A stretch of DNA of 64,000 nt from Felis catus (lineage: Eukaryota): positions 20,276,001 through 20,340,000 of the forward strand of contig NC_058368.1 of assembly GCF_018350175.1 (NCBI RefSeq), in the 5' to 3' direction. How positions within the stretch are numbered: position 1 is the first letter of the stretch; the number at the start of each line of letters is the position of its first letter. The notes below the pieces were generated by a model. That model did not search any database and was not told where the DNA came from. It saw nothing but the letters and a program-made list of their open reading frames with translations. Positions 17,001 through 64,000 of this stretch are shown in pieces. A program made the position numbers and the translations under genes.

Positions 17001-19424
17001 GTGACATGATTTTACATATAGAAAATCCTAATTATGCCACCAAAAAAACTGTTGGATCTAATCAATGAATTCGGTAAAGTTGCAGGATACAAAATCATAT
17101 GCAAAAATCAGTAGCATTTATATAAAAGCAAATTATCTGAAAAAGAAATAGAGAAAACGATGACATTTTTATAATAGCATCAAAACCAGCAAAATACTTA
17201 GGGATAAATTTAACCAAGGAAATGAAAGTTCTCTACACTGAAAACTACAAGATAATGATGAAAGAAACTGAAGATTACACAAACATAAAGGGGTTCAATG
17301 TACATGGATTAGAAGAACTAATATTAAAAGTGTCCACACCACCCAAAGACTTGTATAGATTCAATACAATCCCTATCAAGATTCTAATGCCATTTGTTAT
17401 AGAAGTAGAAAAAACAATCCTAAGGTTTACATGGAACCACAAAAGACCCTGAATATCCAAAGCATTTTTGAAAAAGAGGAACAAAGCTAGAGGTATCACA
17501 CTTCTAGATTTGAAGCTATTTTATAAAGCTATGATAATCAAAACAGTATGGCACTGGCATAAAACCAGACACAGAGACCAACAGAACACATCTGAGAGAC
17601 CAGGAATAAACCCATAAGTAGTCAACTAATATATGACAAGGGGGCCAAGAATACTCAATGGAGAAAAGATAGTTTCTTCAATTAATGCTGTTGAGAAACT
17701 GGATATTCACATGTAGAAGAAAGAAATTAGACCCCTATCTTACCACTCATGAAGTAACTCAAAATGGATCAAAGACTTAAATGTAAAATTAGAAACCATA
17801 AAACTCCTAGAAGAAAACATAGGAAAAAAAAGCTCCATGATATGGGTTTTGGCAATGAACTTTTGGATATGATCCCTAAGGCACAGCAGCAAAATAAAAA
17901 ATAAGTGAGATTACATCAAACTAAAAAGGTTCTTCACAGAAAAAAAATTAAAAAGTGAAAGGAACACCTATGGAATAGGAAAAAAATTGAAAACTACATA
18001 TCTGGTTATTTTTGTATACTATTTGTACATAAAATATAAATATATGTGTGTGTGTATGTATATGTGTATACACACATTTATATATATAAATATAATATAT
18101 ATAAATATAACATATTTATATAAAGATATATAGTAATTATATATTTATATAAATTTATATTTATGTCATATTTATATAATATTAAAATTTACATTTTACA
18201 TATATACATATATACATTTTTACATTATAATTTACATATAAATATAAAATATTACAAATATTTACATATAAATTTACATTTATATAAATGTAAATTTATA
18301 TAAATATGATATATAAAGATATATTTATATAAATATATATAAAATACACTTATGTATATATTTATACATATATTATATTTATATATATAAAATCACTCAA
18401 TAACAAAACACCAAATAATCCAATTTAAAAATGGGCAAAGAATCTGAATGGTAATTTTTCCAAAATGGTACACATATGGCTAACAGGTACATGGAAAGGT
18501 GCTCAACATCACTAGTTATCAGGGGGATGCAAATCAAAAACCACAATGAGACAATGCCTCATGCCTGTGAGAATGGCCATGCCCAAAAAGACAAGAGATA
18601 ACAAATGCTGGCAAGTGTGTGGAAAACTCCTTTGTGTACTGTTGGTGGGATTGTGAAGTGGTGGGCCACTATGGGAAACAATCTGGTGGTTCCTCAAAAA
18701 ATTACAAATGTAATTACCCTATGACCCAGCAACTCTACTTCTGGGTACATATCCAAAGGAAACAAAAAACCATGATGTCAAAAAATATCTGAAACACCAT
18801 GTTCACAGCTGTATTATACACAACAGCTGAAACATGGAAACAACCTAAGTGTCCACAGTGACGGACACTTCTTTGAGTAAAGAGGTTGTGGTATATATTC
18901 ACATTGGAATGTTACTGAGCTATTAAAAAGGAGGAAATCCTGCTATTTGCGACAACATGGAAAGGTTTTGAGGGCATTATGCTATGTGAAATAAACCAGA
19001 CAGAGAAAGACAAATAGGTGATCTCACCTATAAGCAGAATCTAAGAAAAAGCAAGCTCATAGAAAAAGAGATCAGATTTGTGGTTCCAGGGGTTGGGTAG
19101 GGGGATGTGTGTGGGACCTGGATGAAACTGGTCAAAAAGTGCCAACCTGGAGTTATAAGAAAAATAAGTACTAAGGATGTCACGTACAAAATGATGGCTA
19201 TTCACAACGCTATATGGAATGTTTGAAAGTCATTAAGAGCAAATCCAAAGAATTCGCATCACAAGGACTAAGCTTTTTCTTTTGGTAACTATATGAAATG
19301 CCTGGTGTTCACTAAACGTCTCAGGGTGATCATCTCACAACACACGTAGGTCAAATCACGCTGTATACTTATATACAGTGCTATATGTCAAATATATCTC
19401 AATAAAACTAGAAAAGAATAAAAA
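11055..19424 (+). mobile_element. Near full-length old L1 (about 8.4 kb): monomeric 5' UTR (~11055-13380), ORF1 remnant (~13390-14380), ORF2 remnant (~14910-18800), 3' UTR and A-rich tail
   Basis: Starts ggagggacatctccaagatgg. ORF1-like gaattcagaataatcctctt and ORF2 motifs PGPYGFTGEFYQTF and [10 protein letters not shown] are present; ends ctcaataaaa plus A-rich tail. Possible degenerate TSD agatcttctccct / agatccttccct. Both ORFs are disrupted. Confidence 0.92.
18010..18390. repeat. AT-rich (TA)n low-complexity tract inside L1 ORF2
   Basis: About 380 bp almost entirely of tata/taaa/taca units. Confidence 0.9.
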
Positions 19425-26459: not shown

Positions 26460-26693
26460 GGGGCGCCTGGGTGGCGCAGTCGGTTAAGCATCCGACTTCA
26501 GCCAGGTCACGATCTCGCGGTCCGTGAGTTCGAGCCCCGCGTCAGGCTCTGGGCTGACGGCTCAGAGCCTGGAGCCTGTTTCCGATTCTGTGTCTCCCTC
26601 TCTCTCTGCCCCTCCCCCGTTCATGCTCTGTCTCTCTCTGTCCCAAAAATAAATAAACGTTGAAAAAAAAAAATTAAAAAAAAAAAAAAAAAA
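26460..26693 (+). mobile_element. Young felid CanSINE
   Basis: Consensus-like body, long poly-A; TSD aaaaggtgacagtg. Confidence 0.95.
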
Positions 26694-27584
26694 GGTGACA
26701 GTGCAGTGGAGACAAAGAAGGCAGGGCAGGGAGCCGGAGCGTCTGTGTGCGAGAGAACAGCAAACGGGTGTTTTTCATTGGGTGGCTGGGGAGGCTTTGC
26801 TCATGAGGGCACGCTGAGCGGAGACCCGAGGGGGCTGAGGGAGCAGCCACAGGGCCCTTGTGTGGCTCCAGGCAGAGGGGACAGAGCGGAACAGTGTGTT
26901 CCACGGGACAGACTGCAAGGCAGGTGGCCGGGTGGAGTGTGGCAGGCGAGGCAAGAACAGCGGACCTTGGAGAAGCAGGCTTGTGTTCCACGTGGGGCGG
27001 GATGGGCAGCCCCCAGGGGCTCTGAGCAGAGGACTCCCACGGTGTCACTTATGTCTGAGAGGGCCCTCTAGCTGTGCAGCGGAGAGTCTGCTGCAGAAGT
27101 CAGGACACTACTCAGGGGCTCCCGGGGAAACAGCAGCGGCTGAGCCGGCCTGAGGTGGCAGTGGTGAGAGGGAGGTAGAGTCTGCGGGGATTCTGGAAGT
27201 GGAATACACAGGGACCTCCTGAAAGAGAAGGCCCCAGAAGGACTCTGGCATTTCCGTCCTGAGCATCTGAAGAGTGGTTTGTGTTTCCAGTAGCTGGTTT
27301 CTCACTAGCTGCCTCCCTGCCCTCAGGACGGCAGCTCGGAACCCTGACCACTGCCCTGGGCCCAGCAGCCCTGCCTGGGTCTCTGTGTCTGCTGCTGCCC
27401 TGGGGCTCCCCTGAAACTCCCGGACCCACGGCCACCCTCAGTCAGCTCAGCTCAGGCATCAGTTCTTCTAAGAAGACTCTTGTGACCATCTGACCCCTGG
27501 CCAGCATCAACCAATCCACCCTTTGTGTAACAATAGCCCCTGTTCACTGATTCATGGGTGCTGAGAGGTAGCTCAAAGGCATTC

Positions 27585-27822
27585 TTTTTTTTTTTTTTTT
27601 TTTTTTTAATTTTTTTTTTCAACGTTTATTTATTTTCGGGACAGAGAGAGACAGAGCATGAACGGGGGAGGGGCAGAGAGAGAGGGAGACACAGAATCGG
27701 AAACAGGCTCCAGGCTCTGAGCCATCAGCCCAGAGCCTGACGCGGGGCTCGAGCTCACGGACCGCGAGATCGTGACCTGGCTGAAGTCGGACGCTCAACC
27801 GACTGCGCCACCCAGGCGCCCC
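27585..27822 (-). mobile_element. Young felid CanSINE
   Basis: Long poly-T, consensus-like body; TSD ctcaaaggcattcttt. Confidence 0.95.
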
Positions 27823-28989: not shown

Positions 28990-29852
28990 CTTACCCTGTG
29001 CGTTGTTGGTGGAAATAGAAAATAGTACAGTTGCTACAGAAAACAGCATGGTGGTTCTTCCCTATAAAAAAATGAACACAAATTACCATATGATCCAGCA
29101 ACTGCACTTCTGGGTATATGCCTGGAAGAAGCAGAAGTAGGAACTCAAAGAGATATTTGTACACTCATGTTCACAGCAGCATCATTCGCAAAAGCCCAAA
29201 GGTGGAAGCAACCCCAGTACCCATCAGATGAGTGGATAAACAAAAAGGCGGCATGTTCACGAGGGAGTATCGGTCAGACTTAGAAAAGAAAGAAATCCTG
29301 ACATGTGCTACCACGTGGATGACCCTTGAGGACGTTATGCTGAGTGAAACGAGCCGGTCATGGAAAGGCAGATACTGTATGATTCCCCTTATGTGAGGTC
29401 CCTAAAGTAGACGAATTCACAGGGACAGAAAGTAGAGTGGTGGTTGCCGGGGGCTGGGGGAGGCAGCACGGGGGTTGTTGTGTGATGGGTAAAGTTTCAG
29501 TTTTGCAAGATGAAGACAGACCTAGAGATGCATGGTGGTGGTGTGGGCACGACGTGGATGCACTTCACACTACTGAACCGCACATTTAAAAATGGTGAGG
29601 ATGGGGGCACCTGGGTGGCTCAGTCGGTTAAGCCTCCAACTTTGGCTCGGGTTCACGACCTCACAGTCTGTGAGTTCGAGCCCCGCACTGGGCTCCGTGC
29701 CGACAGTGTGGAGCCTGCTTGGGATTCTCTCTCCCTCTCTCTCTCTCTGCCCCTCCCCCAATTGCCCTCTCTCTCTCAAAATAAATTTAAAAAATAAAGA
29801 CAGAAAAAATGTTTAGGATCATAAATTTTATTATGTGTCTTTTACCACAATT
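28990..29852 (+). mobile_element. Old L1 (L1MB-like) 3' end, interrupted by a SINE
   Basis: attaccatatgatccagca, tggatgacccttgaggacgttatgctgagtgaa, gtttcagttttgcaagatga, ttttaccacaatt. Confidence 0.85.
29604..29809 (+). mobile_element. CanSINE
   Basis: ggggcacctgggtggctcag head, CT tract, A tail; degenerate TSD aaaaatg..aggat. Confidence 0.9.
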
Positions 29853-30100
29853 CAGCAATTTTAAGAAGTCTCTGGAACCCCCTCAGTCCCTCAACTGCAT
29901 CCTCATCAGCCTCTGTCCCCATGACCTCACAGCACCGGTGTCCCCCGTGTCCTGAGACTGGTGGTCCACTCAATCCCCTCACTATGTAAGAGGACAAGTA
30001 AAGTAGCTGGCACGGATGAGGCCTTAAAAGCTCTCCAGTGAAGAGAGTCTCAGAGGTTGAGCCTGGCATCTCAACAATTGTGTGTCTGATTTCTTGCCCA

Positions 30101-30311
30101 TTTTTAAAAGTTTATTTTCTTTTGAGAGAAAGAGAGCGTGCGCACTCATGAGCAGAGAAGGGGCAGAAAGAGAGGGAGAGAGAATCCCAAGCAGGCTCCA
30201 CACTGTCGGCACGGCGCTTGATGTGGGGCTCGAACTCAGAAACCATGAGATCCTGACCGGAGCCAAAATCAAGAGGTGGACGCCCAACCGACCGAGCCAC
30301 CCGGGTGCCCC
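30101..30311 (-). mobile_element. CanSINE
   Basis: Reverse-strand SINE; TSD tgatttcttgccc. Confidence 0.9.
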
Positions 30312-34696: not shown

Positions 34697-35430
34697 CTGC
34701 AGGAGGATCTTGTTCCCGTCGAGGTCCTCCGTCTGCCAGCGCCCCTCACTGATGGGGCTGCAGGGGTTGGGCAAGAGAGGCACGAGCTCGCCGATGTCCT
34801 TGACCCGGAACTCCAGCACCGAGGAGTCGGTGGGGACGGGGGTCTGGTCACAGGGCAGTCTCTTCAGGGAGAACTGGATGTCCACATCCAGATTGGAGAA
34901 AATGGGGAAGATGCAGAAGTCCGTCTTCTTCTGGCTGGGGCTGCGCCGGAGGATCAGCTCGTAGAACTTGAGGATGTCGGCGTAGTTGTCGTGGCGACAG
35001 TAGATGGTGAAGCGCACGATTTCCTTGCCGTAGTGCACGGGCCGGATGGCCCACAGCGGCGTCCCGGGGGCCAGCGTGAAGAAGTCCTGGCTGCAGGGCA
35101 GGTAGGGCAGGAGCCTGCGCGGCACGCGCTCCGTGTGGTGGTGGCGCCAGGGCGGCCGCTGCAGCGTGCGGTGCAGCTGCAGGATGGGCTCCTCGCCGTA
35201 CTCCTCCTGAAGGAACAGCACCACGGCCAGCGCCGGCTGCGCCACCTTCGGGGGCTTCCTCCGCCGCCGGGGCGCCCGCCTCTCCGAGACCCGGAAGAGC
35301 TGCAGGTCCGGGTGGATCCAGGCCAAGACCTTGTCGATGGCCTCCTGCAGGGGCTGGGATTCCCCTGGGTCTGCGATTATGTGGATGCTAACCAGGAAAG
35401 GGTCCTGCGCCTCCTCCACGGAGAGCTCAC
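34697..35430 (-). CDS. FAM124A: FAM124A large internal coding exon (734 nt; equivalent to human exon 3)
   Basis: ORF 34577..35491 contains ELSVEEAQDPFLVSIHIIADPGESQPLQEAID...WQTEDLDGNKILLQ, matching my recollection of FAM124A. On the minus strand the acceptor is pyrimidine tract + cgccccccag|GTGAGC at 35430 and the donor is CTGCAG|gtacct at 34697. GC3- and CpG-rich codon usage. Confidence 0.95.
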
Positions 35431-52785: not shown

Positions 52786-53994
52786 TGAAATGCATATACA
52801 TCCTCACTTACCTAGAGGTCCCAACACTGAAGACTGAGGCAGGAATCACCAAACATTTAAAGAGAAAAGGAAGAGCAATAAACAGCTATTGATCCCAGTT
52901 GCACTGAGAGAAATTCCAACTCAGAGATGGCAATTAAAATAATGGAGAGGAAAGCGTCCCAAACCAAATTACCGGTTTCGCTGACAAGAGAGGTGCTTTG
53001 TTGTGACCCAGAGGACTGATTTGAGAGCTACGAATTGAGCAAAGGCTTTAGGCAAGTATTTCATAAAAATCATTCTTAAAGAAATGTAGCTTCTGGGCAA
53101 AACTGAGTGGAATGAGAATGGCAGCATAGAGAGAGAGAGAGTTCAAGACAGGCTTCCCTGATTTGTAGGAATCCAGAGCTTCTGGGAGGGAATGCAAATC
53201 ACTGGAGCATTATTCTCATTATTACTAATGGTTCTTAATAACTAAGGGGCAATGTTGGGTCTCCAGTTGGCTGAAATGATCACAGATTATTCGCTGCAGT
53301 TATACTAATAACTAAATATAATTTGACACTAAATTACAATTCCAGAAATACAGCTTTCTGCACAGTCTCTTATTGCAAAGGAAAACTAAGCAAGAACATC
53401 AATAAATAGAATAATCCAATTAAGTGGCCTTCCATTTGAGTACTACTTAGAATTGAGGCTTAACAGGGAAGTAAGATAGGAAAAACAATTCAGTATTTAC
53501 TGATTCAAATAATCAGGGCTTTTATTGTAAGACAATTTTTTGTTATTTTAAAATAGGTGTTTAATTAATCTGAATGGCTTTGGTCATTTATGCAGTGATC
53601 CTAATCACTGCAAATTGTTCCTAGATATAAGGCCTAATTTCCCATGAGTAGATTTACTTGTAAATTAGCATTTAATACAGGCATATTTTTCTATGCTTAC
53701 AGTGTGTTTATAAACATATTCCCAATCACTTTTTTTAACCACATAGGACAATCACCTACGACATCTGTCTGCAGATACAAAACTACAAGGGGGGACATTG
53801 ACCCAACAGATGAACCGAGGCCACCCCATGCATGCTCTGAGCTGTTAGCCTTTGGGCTGTAGGTTTTTATATAAATGTTTGTTGAATGAATGAGTAACCT
53901 CAGATTATTCAGAGAGGCTGTTTTAGAAGCATCCGTCCTAACGGAGCCTAGGCTAGTTCCTCTAGACTCAGTTTCCAAAGGGAAAGTAGTGGCC

Positions 53995-54225
53995 TTAACA
54001 GAAGAATCACCCAAGGTATCCTTGCCAAAGAGCATGAAACAGGATCCTCTGACTCTGAAAGTTGGGGCTTTTCCTGGAGAATTTAAGAACTAGTTAGTTC
54101 TTAGAGCTAGTTAGTTCTGAAATCAAGGAACAATTAAATTCTCCAGGAAAAGCCCCAACTTTCAGAGTCAGAGGATCCTGCATCATGCTCTTTGGCAAGG
54201 ATACCTTGGGTGATTCTTCTGTTAA
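53995..54225. repeat. Long inverted repeat: 92-bp arms (53995-54086 and 54134-54225) with a 47-bp spacer
   Basis: Left arm ttaacagaagaatcacccaagg...cctggagaatttaa is the reverse complement of right arm ttaaattctccagg...gattcttctgttaa, with 2 mismatches. The ORF track shows the same peptide (ALTEESPKVSLPKSM.QDPLTLKVGAFPGEF) on both strands. Confidence 0.97.
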
Positions 54226-54291
54226 AGCATGGGTTACACACGTAGGTGGGGCTGAGAGGCCAGTGCTGAAGGACATTTAAACCATACTTAC

Positions 54292-54323
54292 TGCTGGTGG
54301 AGGACATGTGGCTGTAGTCAGAC
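54292..54323 (-). CDS. FAM124A: FAM124A 32-nt micro-exon (exon 2), encodes (G)SDYSHMSSTS(S)
   Basis: Minus strand reads tgtgtttcag|GTCTGACTACAGCCACATGTCCTCCACCAGCA|gtaagt. The final A plus GT of the next exon gives AGT (Ser) and continues in frame into ELSVEEAQ. Matches the recalled human N-terminus GSDYSHLSSTSSELSVEE. Confidence 0.92.
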
Positions 54324-54534
54324 CTGAAACACAAAACCTTGGTGTTAGTAGGATTAGACATTATTTTTCTTTATCCAAATGATTTCTTCATGCTAGAACT
54401 TTAAAAAAACAGTCTTACAGTGGTAAGTAACTATTTAAATGTGAGGAAATGGCACACATCAAAAATTGTAGTGCAGAGGCATTTTGTGTAAAACAAAGTT
54501 ATGTCTGAATGTGAAGGCAAAATTTTAAAGGCAT

Positions 54535-54771
54535 TTTATTTTTTTTTAAATTTTTTTAGATGTTTATTTTTCAGAAAGAGAGAGTGAGTGAGAGACAGCG
54601 AGAGCACGCGTGCGAGTGGGGTAGGGGCAAAGATGGGGTGGGGACAGAGGATCCAAAGCAGGCTCCATGCTGAGAGCAGAGAGCACAAAATGGGGCTAGA
54701 ACCCATGAACTGAGAGATCATGACCAGAGCCGCAGTGGGACACTCAACCGACTGAGCCGCTCAGGCACCCC
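54535..54771 (-). mobile_element. CanSINE about 210 nt upstream of the micro-exon acceptor
   Basis: Reverse-strand SINE; TSD taaaggca(t/c)ttta. Confidence 0.9.
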
Positions 54772-56174
54772 TAAAGGCACTTTAGAAAGCGGGGTTCCTT
54801 CATGTGGGCTCTCTGGATCTCCAAGATGGCAGACCAGCTGGGTCCTGAGCCATCTAAATTCACTGGCAAATTTTTGAATGGAAGCTTATTTTTTCTGGGG
54901 AGAAGGCTCAGAGTTTTCAACAGATTCTCAAAGGGGTTCAGGATTCTCCAGAAGGTTAAACCTCCGCAAATGAGCACCCTTCAAGTTAGCTCCACACCAC
55001 GGGGAAACGTTTCTTGGCTGCCATCAGCAGAGGGATGATGGAACCTGGCGGCAGTGCGAAGGGACCCTGGCTTGTGAGGGCTTCCACAATCAGGGTGTGG
55101 CTGGCCCTCAGGAAACACAAAGGCACAATGAGGCTTGGCTGATTTCAGTTCCAGCTGAGAAGAAATCCTGCTGCGTATTAGAGTAACAGGACGTGGGCTG
55201 TGATAGGGAAAGGGAAAAAGGCAGGGTAAGGGCCAGGGTGAAATTACCCATCAGTTTCTAGGCTGAAAGACCAGGTCCTGGCACTCAGCCTCTGTGAGAA
55301 TGGGAATCTGGCCAAGGATCTGCCTGCTTAATCTCTATGAAGTTTCTGCTCTACTTGTGTGGCTGGGAAGCCTTCCCTCTCTGGCAACGTATATGCTATA
55401 GAAGCTCTTGGTTTTCTCCCCCCAGTGTCCCAAAGTCATTCTCAGTGGGAAATTAATCTCTCAAGCACGTAGGGATTTATTATGCAAGTGGTAGTTAGGG
55501 GATATGGTTATGCAAATAAAGTAGTTAATTATGTTTAATTTTCCACATACACCCTCCTTTTATTTACTTAGTCTCATGTTGCCTTTCTTAAATTATCCAA
55601 TTTTCACTCCACTGACTTTGTTACCACATCAACAAAGCATATACAAAGCTTCAAAAAACATCACAAAAAAGCACACCTCTTACCCGTTGAAATAACCTAC
55701 ATCTCTCATGCCAAATGATGCACTGATTTATTGGTAGAGGAACAAAATGGAAGGAAAACAGCATGTAGTTTCCCCTTTTCAAATGAAATGCTTTAGCAGT
55801 TACAGAATCACTGAATTTTAAAGCTGGAGAGAATAGCAACTACTAACATTTGCAAATCCCTTTATGTATTACAAACTGCATCCGCCTACATCTAATCCAA
55901 TTTTTTGCATTCCTGGTTAGGAAACTAAACTGATACTATTGGCGAGGAGATCAGGAGGTGAGCAATGATAGGGACTTGAAGTACGGGGGCAGGGTGATGG
56001 CAAGACAGGAGCTGAAAGGTGGAAGGATTGGCTGGGGCATGGTGACACGCTGGCTAAGGAAAATGCAAGAGAGGACAGTCAGGATCATTAACCCCAGTGT
56101 TGGGGCATTAAATTCTTTCTGGAACCAGACGGGACTAAATTAACTTTAGGGCAAAACTTAGAAATCTAACTGTA

Positions 56175-57541: not shown

Positions 57542-57769
57542 TTTTTTAAAAAAATTTTTTCTTAATGTTTATTTATTTTTGACACAGAGAGACAGAGCAT
57601 GAGTGGGGGAGGGGCAGAGAGAGAGCAGGACACAGAATCTGAAGCACGCTCCAGGCTCTGAGTTGTCAGCACAGAGCCCGACGCGGGGCTTGAACTCACA
57701 GACCGCGAGATCATGACCTGAGCTGAAGTCAGACGCTCAACCTCAAATGACTGAGCCCCCAGGAGGCCC
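57542..57769 (-). mobile_element. CanSINE
   Basis: Reverse-strand SINE; TSD ccagcttttt. Confidence 0.9.
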
Positions 57770-58635
57770 TCCCCAGCTTTTTTAAGGTAGGAGGGAACAG
57801 TAGTGAATCCTGTTTATTGGTCTCACATCCTAAGAATTGATCCACTTGGTTCTGCACAAGACATTCAACTCTACGAGAATAAAGCATGAAAGGTGAATCC
57901 GTGAATTTTAGGAAGAGTATGTATGGGCACATGACACAGATAAGTAGAATAATGCAAGGATTGTAGATCTTCACACATCTGACACATATAGGAGACACAT
58001 TTGCAAATATTACATTTATTTGGTACCTATGCCAATAATAACCAGAAAGTTAGATGCAGTTCCTTCACTGTAGTTTACTTACAATTATACATATAGGGGT
58101 TATATATAAAAAGGCCTGCACTTAAGACAGGTTATCACTGTCAGCAGCCATATATACCTTCTTAAATTCTCTTTTCCAGGAAAATCTTGGCAGAAGAATT
58201 GATCTTGGCATTTTAGTAACATTGATCTTGAGGTTTCTCTAAAACATCAGCTCAGTGCATTATGGATCTCATCTGTTAGCTCTCAGTCCATTGAATTAGA
58301 TGCCATGGTAATTTAGAGCTAACTAGCCCCACCTTGAACACAAAGATAATGGAGTGCCTAATAGATCATCCTGTCTTCTCTGCAAGATTTCACCTTTTAC
58401 TGTTCTCTAAACCTGTCCCATCTTCAAATTTATTCCCCCTAACCTTTCCCATTCACCTGCTTTATAAACAGTAGACCTGTGAATTGTTTGCTATCTCTTA
58501 AATCACACTGAAATGTCAGGTGGAGGTCACCCAAAGGGCATGGTATGACCCTATGTTTTCAGAAGCTCAGTGACAGGTGACATGGAAGTGAAGGTTCATT
58601 AGTGCCAGATCAACCCTCTGAATGAAAATAATCCA

Positions 58636-58820
58636 GGGCGCCTGGGTGGCTCAGTAGGTTAAGCATCCAACTTCACCCTAGGTCATGATCTCATGGCTCA
58701 TGAGTTTGAGCCCCGTGTCGGGCTCTGTGCTGACAATGCAGAGCCTGCTTCAAATCCTCTCTCTCTCTCTCTCTCTCTGCCCCTCCCCCGCTCACCTCTC
58801 TCTCTCTCCCAAAATAAGTA
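58636..58820 (+). mobile_element. CanSINE
   Basis: gggcgcctgggtggctcag head, (CT)n tract. Confidence 0.9.
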
Positions 58821-58871
58821 CAGAAACGTTTATACAGTATTAAAAACATAATTCATCAGATAACGGTCATA

Positions 58872-59095
58872 TTTTTTTTAAAATTTTTTTTTCAACGTTT
58901 ATTTATTTTTGGGACAGAGAGAGACAGAGCATGAACGGGGGAGGGGCAGAGAGAGAGGGAGACACAGAATCGGAAACAGGCTCCAGGCTCTGAGCCATCA
59001 GCCCAGAGCCCGACGCGGGGCTCGAACTCACAGACCGCGAGATCGTGACCTGGCTGAAGTCGGAGGCTTAACCGACTGCGCCACCCAGGCGCCCC
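58872..59095 (-). mobile_element. Young felid CanSINE
   Basis: Consensus-like body; TSD taacggtcatattt. Confidence 0.95.
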
Positions 59096-61356: not shown

Positions 61357-63559
61357 TCAAGGCTGGTCTTAAATAGTTCCTGCTTCACAGCGTTGTTGAA
61401 GGATGACGTAAAAGGCTCAGCGCAGTACCCAGCATGGAGTAAATGCTAGTAAGGGTTTGCTATTTACTGCCTTTAGTTGATTTAAATCTGCTCCCAGGAC
61501 TGCAACTGCCATTTTTAGGCCGACGGTTCCCCGATGCAGTGTCATCAGGCTGACCTCCTCTCTAAGACAGATACACTCAACGGCTGGCTCATCACCTTTC
61601 AGACGTCTCCCAATACCTCAGACACAACACATTGAAAATGAAACTTCTCCTACGCTACCCAACTTCCTTTGGAGGGGATCACAGGCTACTTCGAGCATCT
61701 GATGAAAGACCAGTCTCTTCTCACAAAAAGCCACAAAGAACATCATTTTGCATAAAATTTCAAACAATTCATGGACCTCAAATTAACGATCCCTGCCCGA
61801 GCATCTGTGTCACTTGAGCTGAGTCTGGAATGAAGGTAGAGTTTCAGCCGGTGGACAGGCATGCCAGGTGGAGAAGGGCATAGCTGGCGAAAAGGGCGGC
61901 CCGACAAAGGCAAGGAATCAGAAACACCTTGCTCATGTGGCTTGATGCTGGGTACGAGGGCGGTCCTGCCGAAAAATAAGGCCAGAGAGACAGAGGAGGA
62001 CCCCGTAACACCAGGGGGACTTCATCGGCCAGTCTAAGCTCTTTGTTATAGATGCCAGAGCCGCTAAAAGTTTGGAAGGGAGAGGGAGAGAATCAGGTTT
62101 GTATTTTAAAAATAGTCATGATAGCAAACACGTATTAAGTGCTTTCTACATGCTTGGTAGATAGTCTTGACAGGTAGCTTTAGGAAAGTGAGGGAGGGCT
62201 AGAGGGGGCAAACTCTGCAAAAGCCAGGAAACTGCGAGCGGCTTTTTCGTAACCAAACCAAATTTCAGGAAATATAGGACTATGTGGCCAATGCAAGGTT
62301 ACTAACTCTACATCAAAACTCTTTTATTTCAGTGCATGCCATTTTACTCTGATCTTTAGCTTAAGGATGCTACTAAGGCCATAAGTAAACAATTCTATTC
62401 TGTTACCACGACGCACTTCAGTGACAGAAGCAGTGAACAGAAGTTCTGGTGTCCGTATGTTCAGCAAGTCCCTCCCAGGAACCCTGGCAGCTGTCATGTT
62501 GTTCTCGGGGATCCCAGGGAGTTGTCACTCCTGGGTCAGGGCCTCCCCCCCACTTCTCCGGGACAGAATCTTTGGGGAAAACACCTGTCTTAGGTGAGCT
62601 TTGCAAACTGAAAATGGATGAACCTGTTAGTGCCTTATTTAACCCAGCTGAAAACGAGCTAGTTTGTTTTGCTTTGTTTTCTTCTTCTATTCATGGCCTA
62701 GCTAACTAGGGACAGAAGGAAAAAAAAAAAAAGCCAAGGATCTTCAATTCAAGTTGGTAAATGCCGTATACGCTACGTGTGGGGGGAGAAAACAAGGGAG
62801 TGCAGTGTTTGGAATCAGGTTACTTCACCAGAATGTAACTGGGCTCCACAGTGAGCCAGAAATGACTGCAAGTTGGGACGACAGCGAAAGCCCATTGCTG
62901 TAGGGTGTAAGGTCCCAGATTTGGGCTAGGAATGGGTGGAGCCTGCAGGGAAGGCTCGGGCTGGGTCCGCAGGAGTGACTGCCTAGGAAGCCTAACCCCT
63001 TGTGCCCATTCTGGGACTGGACTCTCTTCCTGTCCTCACAGGGCTGCCAAGCCCCGAGATTATAGTCTAAATGTCCTCAACTTTCCAGGAATGAGGCTTT
63101 CTGTAATCTGGGCAGCTCCAGCCCACCCCCAGGGTTACTCCAGAGAGGAAAGGACATCCTTTCCTCCTGGGTCAGAATTCGCATCCTGGATGTTTGCTGA
63201 CTCTGCACAGGGAAATCCTCTGGCGATAGGAGCTGGGTGGAAGCATTTACAATGACATTCATCTCCTTAAAGATACTCGGTCTTTTGTCCCACTCAGGAA
63301 AACCGTGTCGTTGGGAGAAGGCTAATTAGTCCCCAGAGATAAAGGTCTGGGCTACATGTTTGAGTCCAATGAAGCTGTTTCTTTAAGCAGGGCTGGATCA
63401 TAGCACCATTTTCATCCCACCTGTACCCAAGGCTGGGACAGGTGCGCAGAGAGAAGTTCGGCGGAGAAATAGGAGTCGAGCAGCGGGTCTCAGCAAGCAC
63501 AATAAAGCCGGGAATGAAAAATGTCACCCTCTTATAGGATTCTGAAAGAATTTTAGGTG

Positions 63560-64000
63560 CCGGGTGTCCTATCCTCTTCCCGTCCCCAGCCCCCAGCCCG
63601 GACTCCAGAGAGCTGCGGGGCTAGAATAAAGTCCTCGCAGAAGGTGGAAACAAGTGCAAGCGCATCTCCTAACGATGATCTCAGGGGGGCACCGCATTTG
63701 CCGGGTACTCGACATCATCTCCGCGATAACGGGGGGCAAGGAGGGGCGGGATGTGGTGGTGTGCGGGGGATGGGGGGGGGGTTACTCTGAACCTTGAGTC
63801 CTTCCACTTTCCTCCCCCGGGGGGTGGGGCCCGCCCTGCCCGGGGGCAGCTACGGACCACGCTGCGCTGCCCTCGGGGACCGCCCAGGAGGAAGCCGGCC
63901 CGCCACAGCCCGTCTGCCTTCCACCGGGGGTCCGGCAGAAGGGGCAGCCCGCGCGGCCCCGTCCGGCCCCAGACGCTCCGGTTCTGCCGCGGGGTCCGGG
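63560..64000. promoter_or_regulatory. Edge of CpG island, probably the FAM124A promoter/exon 1 island (exon 1 lies beyond the window end)
   Basis: Sharp rise in GC and CpG content (ccgcccaggag, gcgcggcccc, ccgcgggg) about 10 kb upstream of exon 2 in gene orientation. No exon-1 coding sequence or donor site seen inside the window. Confidence 0.7.

What the first reader, a model, noticed from the sequence alone, without database searches (positions are those of the whole stretch)
53995..54225. Near-perfect 92-bp hairpin immediately downstream of the FAM124A micro-exon
Seen: two 92-bp arms in inverted orientation, 90/92 identical, with a 47-bp spacer and no recognisable SINE or LINE sequence. 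Each arm begins and ends with TTAA. In gene orientation the stem starts at intron position +67 after the exon-2 donor. On the transcribed (minus) strand the two differences become one G-U wobble and one U-U mismatch, so the pre-mRNA stem is essentially continuous. Known: long intronic dsRNA stems are ADAR substrates, can be processed by Drosha/Dicer (inverted duplication is a recognised route to new miRNA/hp-siRNA loci), can alter nearby splice-site use, and can form cruciform DNA. Inference: a recent lineage-specific inverted duplication that may create a new small-RNA locus or a structural splice switch for a frame-shifting exon. No function is demonstrated.
Basis: partly seen in the sequence, partly recalled or inferred. 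Interest (0 to 1): 0.78.

Follow-up and report, generated by a model that had tools for sequence, protein, structure and literature searches.

The report
Copying-error hairpin in FAM124A intron
A 92-base mirror-image duplication just after a tiny exon of a cat-family FAM124A gene is most likely the scar of a DNA-copying slip of a known and common kind, and nothing seen here shows that the RNA hairpin it makes does anything.

Summary
In detail: arms 53995-54086 and 54134-54225, 90/92 identical, 47-nt spacer, stem starting at intron +67 after the 32-nt FAM124A exon 2. One 106-nt templated insertion (53998-54103: slip back, snap back, fold back on the exon-proximal arm, return at TAA/TTA microhomology) rebuilds everything except the one dinucleotide mismatch, and explains the TTAA ends. 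This is a template-switch or SD-MMEJ-type event at the long end of a common class (53,666 in primate genic regions; 0.9% of miRNA-sized ones annotated as miRNA). Function is unsupported: the stem is 92 bp against the ~35 bp preferred for pri-miRNA, it pairs with no splice signal, two cat small-RNA catalogues list nothing here, and intron 3 already holds a 234-bp SINE duplex. No reads or orthologs were seen, so fixation, age and editing are open. k-mer shares in 14 DNA runs (0.94-0.96) fit either assembler collapse or absence of one arm. The scan noted a similar templated-hairpin scar on other DNA (e1-7832602), not this locus.

The parts
53995..54086 (.). Exon-distal arm (92 bp), inferred to be the new copy
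   Evidence: polarity inferred from the reconstruction
54134..54225 (.). Exon-proximal arm (92 bp), inferred to be the native template; starts at intron +67 in gene orientation
54087..54133 (.). 47-nt spacer (hairpin loop)
54084..54117 (.). 17-bp tandem duplication (54084-54100, 54101-54117), 15/17 identical
54084..54103 (.). Perfect 9-bp palindrome with 2-nt loop; both differences between the 17-mers lie in it
53998..54103 (-). Inferred single 106-nt templated insertion (model B)
   Evidence: rebuilt from neighbouring sequence with only 54038-54039 unexplained
54038..54039 (.). Adjacent two-base difference between arms (U-U and G-U on the transcribed strand)
   Evidence: chance adjacency of two independent changes 0.023
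54292..54323 (-). FAM124A exon 2, 32 nt; donor GTAAGT; skipping puts a stop at the first full codon of exon 3
54344..54350 (-). Branch-point-like heptamer upstream of the exon-2 acceptor
   Evidence: sequence; consensus recalled
34697..35430 (-). FAM124A exon 3 (734 nt), identifies the host gene; intron 2 is 18,861 nt

Best explanation
A local, templated inverted duplication of unique intronic DNA made by polymerase template switching (replication fork stall or theta-type end joining), most likely neutral. Preferred route (model B, about 2:1 over the mirror route): while the minus strand was being made, the 3' end slipped back 17 nt and recopied 11 nt, snapped back on itself (3-nt primer, 2-nt loop) and copied 6 nt, then paired by TTA with the inner end of the native arm 54134-54225, copied 89 nt of it backwards, and rejoined the original template at TAA. 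Net result: one 106-nt insertion, 53998-54103. One later (or simultaneous) dinucleotide change separates the arms. Shown: the repeat anatomy and that this path rebuilds it. Inferred: the ancestral state, the polarity, the enzyme, the age. In the pre-mRNA the arms should form a 92-bp duplex that may be lightly edited and is removed with the intron.
For:: the four steps regenerate 53900-54330 from flanking sequence with only 54038-54039 unexplained; primer/return homologies 1, 3, 3 and 3 nt; random double mutation of a tandem 17-mer gives such a 9-bp palindrome in 26 of 20,000 trials (second unit ancestral) or 843 of 20,000 (first unit ancestral). The 17-mers differ at 2 of 17 while the arms differ by one dinucleotide in 92, which one event explains without two ages. 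Arm single-copy in the window. Known class: inverted-repeat-forming switches are 31% plus 23% of 794 human-chimp events (PMC5453318); 872-1121 per person outside repeats, mean 11.6 bp, maximum 97-180 bp (PMC9435742); multi-round loop-out and snap-back insertions primed by short repeats (PMC2943611). Neutral prior: 57 of 6,054 miRNA-sized template-switch hairpins are annotated miRNAs (PMC10710096); an expressed long hairpin in mice was poorly diced and little edited in somatic cells (PMC3245926 abstract).
Against: The reconstruction is post hoc and no ortholog or empty allele was seen. The slip step has only 1 nt of homology. An 89-nt copied tract is in the far tail of the length distribution. 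The mini-palindrome control is only p about 0.04 if the first unit is ancestral. Neutrality rests on priors and on negative catalogues whose method could miss a 231-nt hairpin; no RNA reads were seen. In one in-silico model (proximal arm removed, long-range folding) donor accessibility fell to 0.004 against 0.10 with the hairpin, so under the mirror route the hairpin could free the donor.
Confidence: 0.72

Rival explanations
1. Mirror route (model A; same class, overlaps the best explanation): the exon-distal arm is native and the exon-proximal arm is an 88-nt insertion at a single TTAA, made by one fold-back; the 17-mer duplication and mini-palindrome came from an earlier separate event.
For: Needs only two switches, as in the four-point model; homology 5 nt at the fold-back and 4 nt at the return (junction letters).
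Against: Needs three ancestral TTAA within 140 bp (window density 5.5 per kb) and a second, independent event in the spacer.
Confidence: 0.25
2. The hairpin is functional: a source of small RNAs (oocyte or testis endo-siRNA, or an atypical miRNA), or an editing-dependent or steric modulator of exon-2 inclusion, whose skipping would give an immediate stop.
For: Sense-strand intronic position guarantees transcription; 81 of 99 intragenic template-switch miRNA loci lie so; near-continuous 92-bp duplex with 51 adenosines in the arms; long hairpins are diced efficiently in mouse oocytes; exon-2 skipping gives a stop at the first full codon of exon 3; intronic stems near splice sites can alter splicing (review PMC7404189, passages).
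Against: Stem far longer than the ~35 bp preferred; no candidate in two cat catalogues; the stem includes no splice signal and does not enclose the exon; donor accessibility nearly unchanged under model B; a 234-bp SINE duplex already sits in intron 3.
Confidence: 0.07
3. A palindromic non-autonomous DNA transposon (piggyBac-type MITE) of 223 bp inserted at TTAA.
For: The outer ends read TTAA-element-TTAA, the piggyBac target duplication.
Against: Third base inside the TTAA fails the C[C/A/T][C/A/T] start, and piggyBac TIRs average 14 bp against 88 here (PMC5381638); no second copy in 64 kb; the one metagenome match to a 20-nt end pattern is unrelated AT-rich DNA; the inner TTAA and the spacer repeats are left unexplained.
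Confidence: 0.06
4. An old inverted repeat kept near-perfect by repeated arm-to-arm correction.
For: Template switching can maintain hairpins (titles and abstracts); earlier notes report homogenised inverted repeats in this genome (unchecked).
Against: Sharp arm ends at TTAA with no diverged halo beyond 3 bp.
Confidence: 0.07
5. Assembly or library fold-back artefact, or an allele private to the assembled animal.
For: None of the 14 DNA runs holds more than 0.96 of the sampled words (11 at 0.94, 2 at 0.95, 1 at 0.96); an allele without the 106-nt insertion would give 0.938 and one without the proximal arm 0.949.
Against: The same shortfall arises from 2-3 SNPs (0.019 each), a SINE tail in the query (61 k-mers) or collapse of the arm difference (0.02); the indexed contigs collapse variation by design (Logan preprint passages). 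The arms differ, both flanks return to unique sequence and the exon follows intact, which a simple fold-back artefact would not give. Artefact about 0.05; real but polymorphic or private about 0.25 (compatible with the best explanation).
Confidence: 0.05

Closest known systems
Short-range template-switch mutations, four-point model (Loytynoja and Goldman 2017, PMC5453318; Loytynoja 2022, PMC9435742)
   Same: Inverted copy of adjacent unique sequence, short spacer, near-perfect hairpin made in one step; length within the reported maxima (97-180 bp).
   Different: About eight times the mean length (11.6 bp); model B needs three switches and a return, more than the four-point model covers; ancestral state not seen.
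Template-switch-born intronic miRNA hairpins (Monttinen et al. 2023, PMC10710096)
   Same: [quoted passage not shown]
   Different: 92-bp stem and 231-nt hairpin against ~35-bp stems; no small-RNA evidence.
SD-MMEJ complex templated insertions, loop-out and snap-back (Yu and McVey 2010, PMC2943611)
   Same: Direct and inverted copies of nearby sequence in one insertion, primed by very short repeats, several rounds.
   Different: Described at induced breaks in Drosophila and mostly shorter; break and polymerase theta cannot be shown here.
piggyBac-type elements and MITEs (PMC5381638)
   Same: TTAA on both outer sides.
   Different: Start motif fails at base 3, 88-bp instead of 12-19-bp terminal repeats, one copy in the window.
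Inverted SINE pairs as intronic dsRNA (inverted Alu loop-out, PMC13019027, search listing only)
   Same: Long pre-mRNA duplex able to bind dsRNA proteins.
   Different: Not built from a recognised repeat; both arms lie on one side of the exon, so it cannot loop the exon out.

Membership tests
Template-switch mutation (four-point model) | Inserted fragment is the reverse complement of sequence close by | tested here: met
   90/92 identity, 47-nt spacer
Template-switch mutation (four-point model) | Derived against ancestral state shown by an ortholog or second allele | not testable with these tools
   no genome held; exon-2 pattern found nothing in metagenome contigs; no look-alike windows
Template-switch mutation (four-point model) | Explained by exactly two switches | tested here: inconclusive
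   model A needs two for the arm alone; model B needs three plus return for arm and spacer
Template-switch mutation (four-point model) | Copied tract within the known length range | tested here: met
   88-89 nt against maxima of 97-180 bp per person outside repeats
SD-MMEJ complex templated insertion | Insertion made of direct and inverted copies of flanking DNA with short primer repeats | tested here: met
   three templated pieces, 1-3 nt homologies
SD-MMEJ complex templated insertion | Arises at a double-strand break, depends on polymerase theta | not testable with these tools
   historical event
piggyBac-type MITE | TTAA on both sides | tested here: met
   53995-53998 and 54222-54225
piggyBac-type MITE | Terminal repeat begins C[C/A/T][C/A/T] and is about 12-19 bp | tested here: not met
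   third base is G; repeat 88 bp
piggyBac-type MITE | Many dispersed copies | tested here: inconclusive
   one locus in 64 kb; genome not held; metagenome scan one unrelated 20-nt match
Canonical miRNA precursor | Stem of about 35 bp | tested here: not met
   92 bp
Canonical miRNA precursor | Member of a described family | tested here: not met
   best Rfam hits MIR856 90 of 297 bits, MIR7504 65 of 83 bits, both below gathering
Canonical miRNA precursor | Mature and star read stacks | tested here: inconclusive
   published catalogues negative; no small-RNA reads examined
ADAR substrate | Long intramolecular duplex in a transcript | tested here: met
   predicted fold only
ADAR substrate | A-to-G clusters in RNA reads | not tested
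   no reads seen here
MIR-derived sequence (resemblance recalled) | Arm scores against MIR copies | tested here: inconclusive
   p 0.22 against five window copies; 21-43% of 400 random segments score as well with a seven-copy profile, which itself recovered only 5 of 7 held-out copies at p<0.05

The most novel reading that the evidence does not exclude
A single serial template-switch event created, de novo and from non-repeat DNA, a 92-bp pre-mRNA duplex 67 nt below a frame-critical micro-exon; it still segregates among cats, and the allele with the hairpin is edited or diced (for example in oocytes) or shifts exon-2 inclusion and so FAM124A output. That would be a dsRNA regulatory element caught at birth, with its own natural control allele.
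Probability: 0.05. Interest if true: 0.6.

Novelty: new member of a known kind. Interest (0 to 1): 0.2.

Why it matters
As it stands it is a clean, unusually long example of a common mutation type, with a junction anatomy that predicts the ancestral sequence base for base. It would matter more if the insertion segregates among cats: then animals with and without it would test directly whether a newborn ~90-bp intronic duplex near a donor site affects editing, small-RNA output or splicing.

Tried and rejected
Own-genome search: none held. Ortholog hunt by a degenerate exon-2 pattern in metagenome contigs: 0 matches. Arm-end 20-mer in metagenome contigs: 1 match, unrelated beyond the pattern, taken as chance. 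Earlier scan notes by sequence, near and relatives: nothing. Rfam: 8 matches at E<=10, none at gathering score; the miRNA hits reflect the stem alone. MIR origin of the arm, which would have given the polarity: not supported, weak power. k-mer shares as proof of both arms: rejected, since loss of one arm predicts 0.94-0.95; they do argue against an empty-TTAA allele in those 14 runs (expected 0.864). Exon 1 was looked for and not found in the window. A 130-codon stop-free frame at 53700-54089 (minus) is one of 30 of that size or more in the window and was not pursued. One search had an off-by-one in the exon-3 start, corrected. Literature: 'FAM124A' gave 82 papers, 25 listed, none on this hairpin by title or abstract start; 'FAM124A'+'hairpin'+'inverted' gave 1 unrelated paper.

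Full report
Observation. The inverted repeat is real in the window. Arms 53995-54086 and 54134-54225 match at 90 of 92 positions, the two differences are adjacent (54038-54039), the spacer is 47 nt, and the match runs 3 bp further outward with one mismatch. It is far beyond chance: longest perfect arm 47 bp against at most 13 in 200 shuffles; RNA fold -195.8 kcal/mol, z -23. The host is FAM124A: the exon-3 frame matches Pfam FAM124 at E 4e-109, exon 2 (54292-54323, 32 nt) joins exon 3 (35430-34697) in a stop-free frame, and skipping exon 2 puts a stop at the first full codon of exon 3. The stem starts at intron +67 and its two differences are U-U and G-U on the transcribed strand. That the animal is a cat is inferred (a feline metagenome run among the holders; earlier notes), not shown.

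The spacer is not random. It holds a 17-bp tandem duplication (54084-54100, 54101-54117; 15 of 17 identical) and a perfect 9-bp palindrome with a 2-nt loop (54084-54103). Both differences between the 17-mers lie in the palindrome. Two random changes give such a palindrome in 26 of 20,000 trials if the second unit is ancestral, and in 843 of 20,000 if the first is. TTAA is self-complementary, so four TTAA ends are only two facts.

Mechanism. Removing 53998-54103 (106 nt) leaves one arm, one intact 17-mer and the flanks. From that allele, a nascent minus strand that slips back 17 nt and copies 11, snaps back on a 3-nt primer and copies 6, pairs by TTA with the inner end of the native arm and copies 89, then returns at TAA, regenerates the window with only the dinucleotide unexplained. 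This one event accounts for the long arm, its TTAA ends, the tandem 17-mer, its two differences and the mini-palindrome. The mirror route (88-nt insertion of the exon-proximal arm at one TTAA, 5 and 4 nt of homology) is simpler for the arm but needs a second event for the spacer. I put the two at about 2:1. Both are post hoc: no ortholog could be had, and the slip step has 1 nt of homology. Arm divergence is 0.006-0.011 per site (95% range 0.0001-0.04), like the youngest SINE pair in the window (198 of 204); that suggests a young event but cannot date it, as arms can be re-homogenised.

Is it in other animals? Fourteen DNA runs from five studies hold 0.94-0.96 of 158 sampled words of 53300-55000; none holds more. 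This does not show both arms: an allele without the 106-nt insertion predicts 0.938, without the proximal arm 0.949, collapse of the arm difference 0.98, one SNP 0.981, and the query also had a SINE tail of 61 k-mers. The indexed contigs collapse variation by design (Logan preprint, passages). An empty-TTAA allele (0.864) is unlikely in those runs. No reads or contigs were laid on the locus, so real-and-fixed, polymorphic and private all stay open. An artefact is unlikely on internal grounds: the arms differ and both flanks return to unique sequence with the exon intact.

Transposon reading. TTAA-element-TTAA fits a piggyBac target duplication, but the third base fails the C[C/A/T][C/A/T] start and piggyBac terminal repeats average 14 bp against 88 (PMC5381638, passages). 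There is no second copy in the window, and the single metagenome match to a 20-nt end pattern is unrelated. A genome-wide count was not possible. A recalled resemblance of the arm to MIR was not supported by profiles built from window copies, with weak power.

Function. Small RNA: pri-miRNA stems prefer about 35 bp (PMC10710096, parts 1-3 of 6 read); of 53,666 template-switch events in primate genic regions 6,054 were miRNA-sized and 57 (0.9%) annotated. Rfam hits are below gathering score. FAM124A lies on cat A1 between 18.5 and 23.6 Mb (PMC10969784, passages). A 12-tissue catalogue reports no cat-specific miRNA on A1 (PMC5569061, passages; FAM124A absent from its four supplements; its A1 table rows were not read through). 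In a blood study I read all 40 A1 rows of the miRDeep2 sheet: three fall in that interval, all known miRNAs, and none resembles the arm by eye (PMC12313912, supplement 2). These negatives are limited: the method looks for short precursors, the assemblies differ, and oocytes were not sampled. A long expressed hairpin in mice was poorly diced and little edited in somatic cells but diced in oocytes (PMC3245926, abstract). Splicing: the stem includes neither donor, exon, acceptor nor branch point and does not enclose the exon. Donor accessibility is 0.092, 0.106, 0.100 with the hairpin and 0.092, 0.106, 0.152 in the model-B ancestor at three folding spans. Against this, removing the proximal arm instead drops it to 0.004 at the longest span, so under the mirror route the hairpin could have freed the donor. 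Editing: plausible, untested, and not special, since intron 3 carries a 234-bp, 97% SINE duplex.

Known relatives and novelty. It works like the short template-switch mutations of Loytynoja and Goldman (PMC5453318, passages) at the long end of their range (mean 11.6 bp, maxima 97-180 bp; PMC9435742, passages), and like multi-round loop-out and snap-back insertions (PMC2943611, passages). Membership cannot be closed without the ancestral allele. Two searches found no paper on this hairpin; subscription papers, bioRxiv supplements and miRNA databases were not searchable. The scan noted a similar templated-hairpin scar in another genome and other inverted duplications in this one; I did not check them. 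Verdict: a real, well-formed new example of a known mutation type, probably neutral; interest 0.2.

Noticed in passing
window 26460-27822: Two young SINE copies in inverted orientation, 234 bp, 97%, 895 nt apart, in FAM124A intron 3; predicted fold -826.8 kcal/mol; a longer dsRNA than the finding itself.
   Followed up: partly
window 58636-59094: Adjacent inverted SINE pair (73% self-complementary) upstream of exon 2; with SINEs at 57542-57770 and 54643-54783 it gives further possible duplexes in intron 1.
   Followed up: no
window 18020-18391: AT-rich low-complexity stretch that is self-complementary, with a perfect 36-bp palindrome at 18266-18301.
   Followed up: no
window 54324-54363: Exon-2 acceptor has a near-consensus branch-point heptamer 21-27 nt upstream, and the donor is GTAAGT: strong signals for a 32-nt exon (consensus recalled).
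   Followed up: partly
window 63500-64000: CpG-rich end of the window; FAM124A exon 1 was not found and probably lies just beyond it.
   Followed up: partly
window 29604-30311: Older inverted SINE pair, 81-86%, 420 nt apart, also in intron 3.
   Followed up: no
L001 130-149: Chance 20-nt match to the arm end in an AT-rich metagenome contig; no similarity beyond it.
   Followed up: yes
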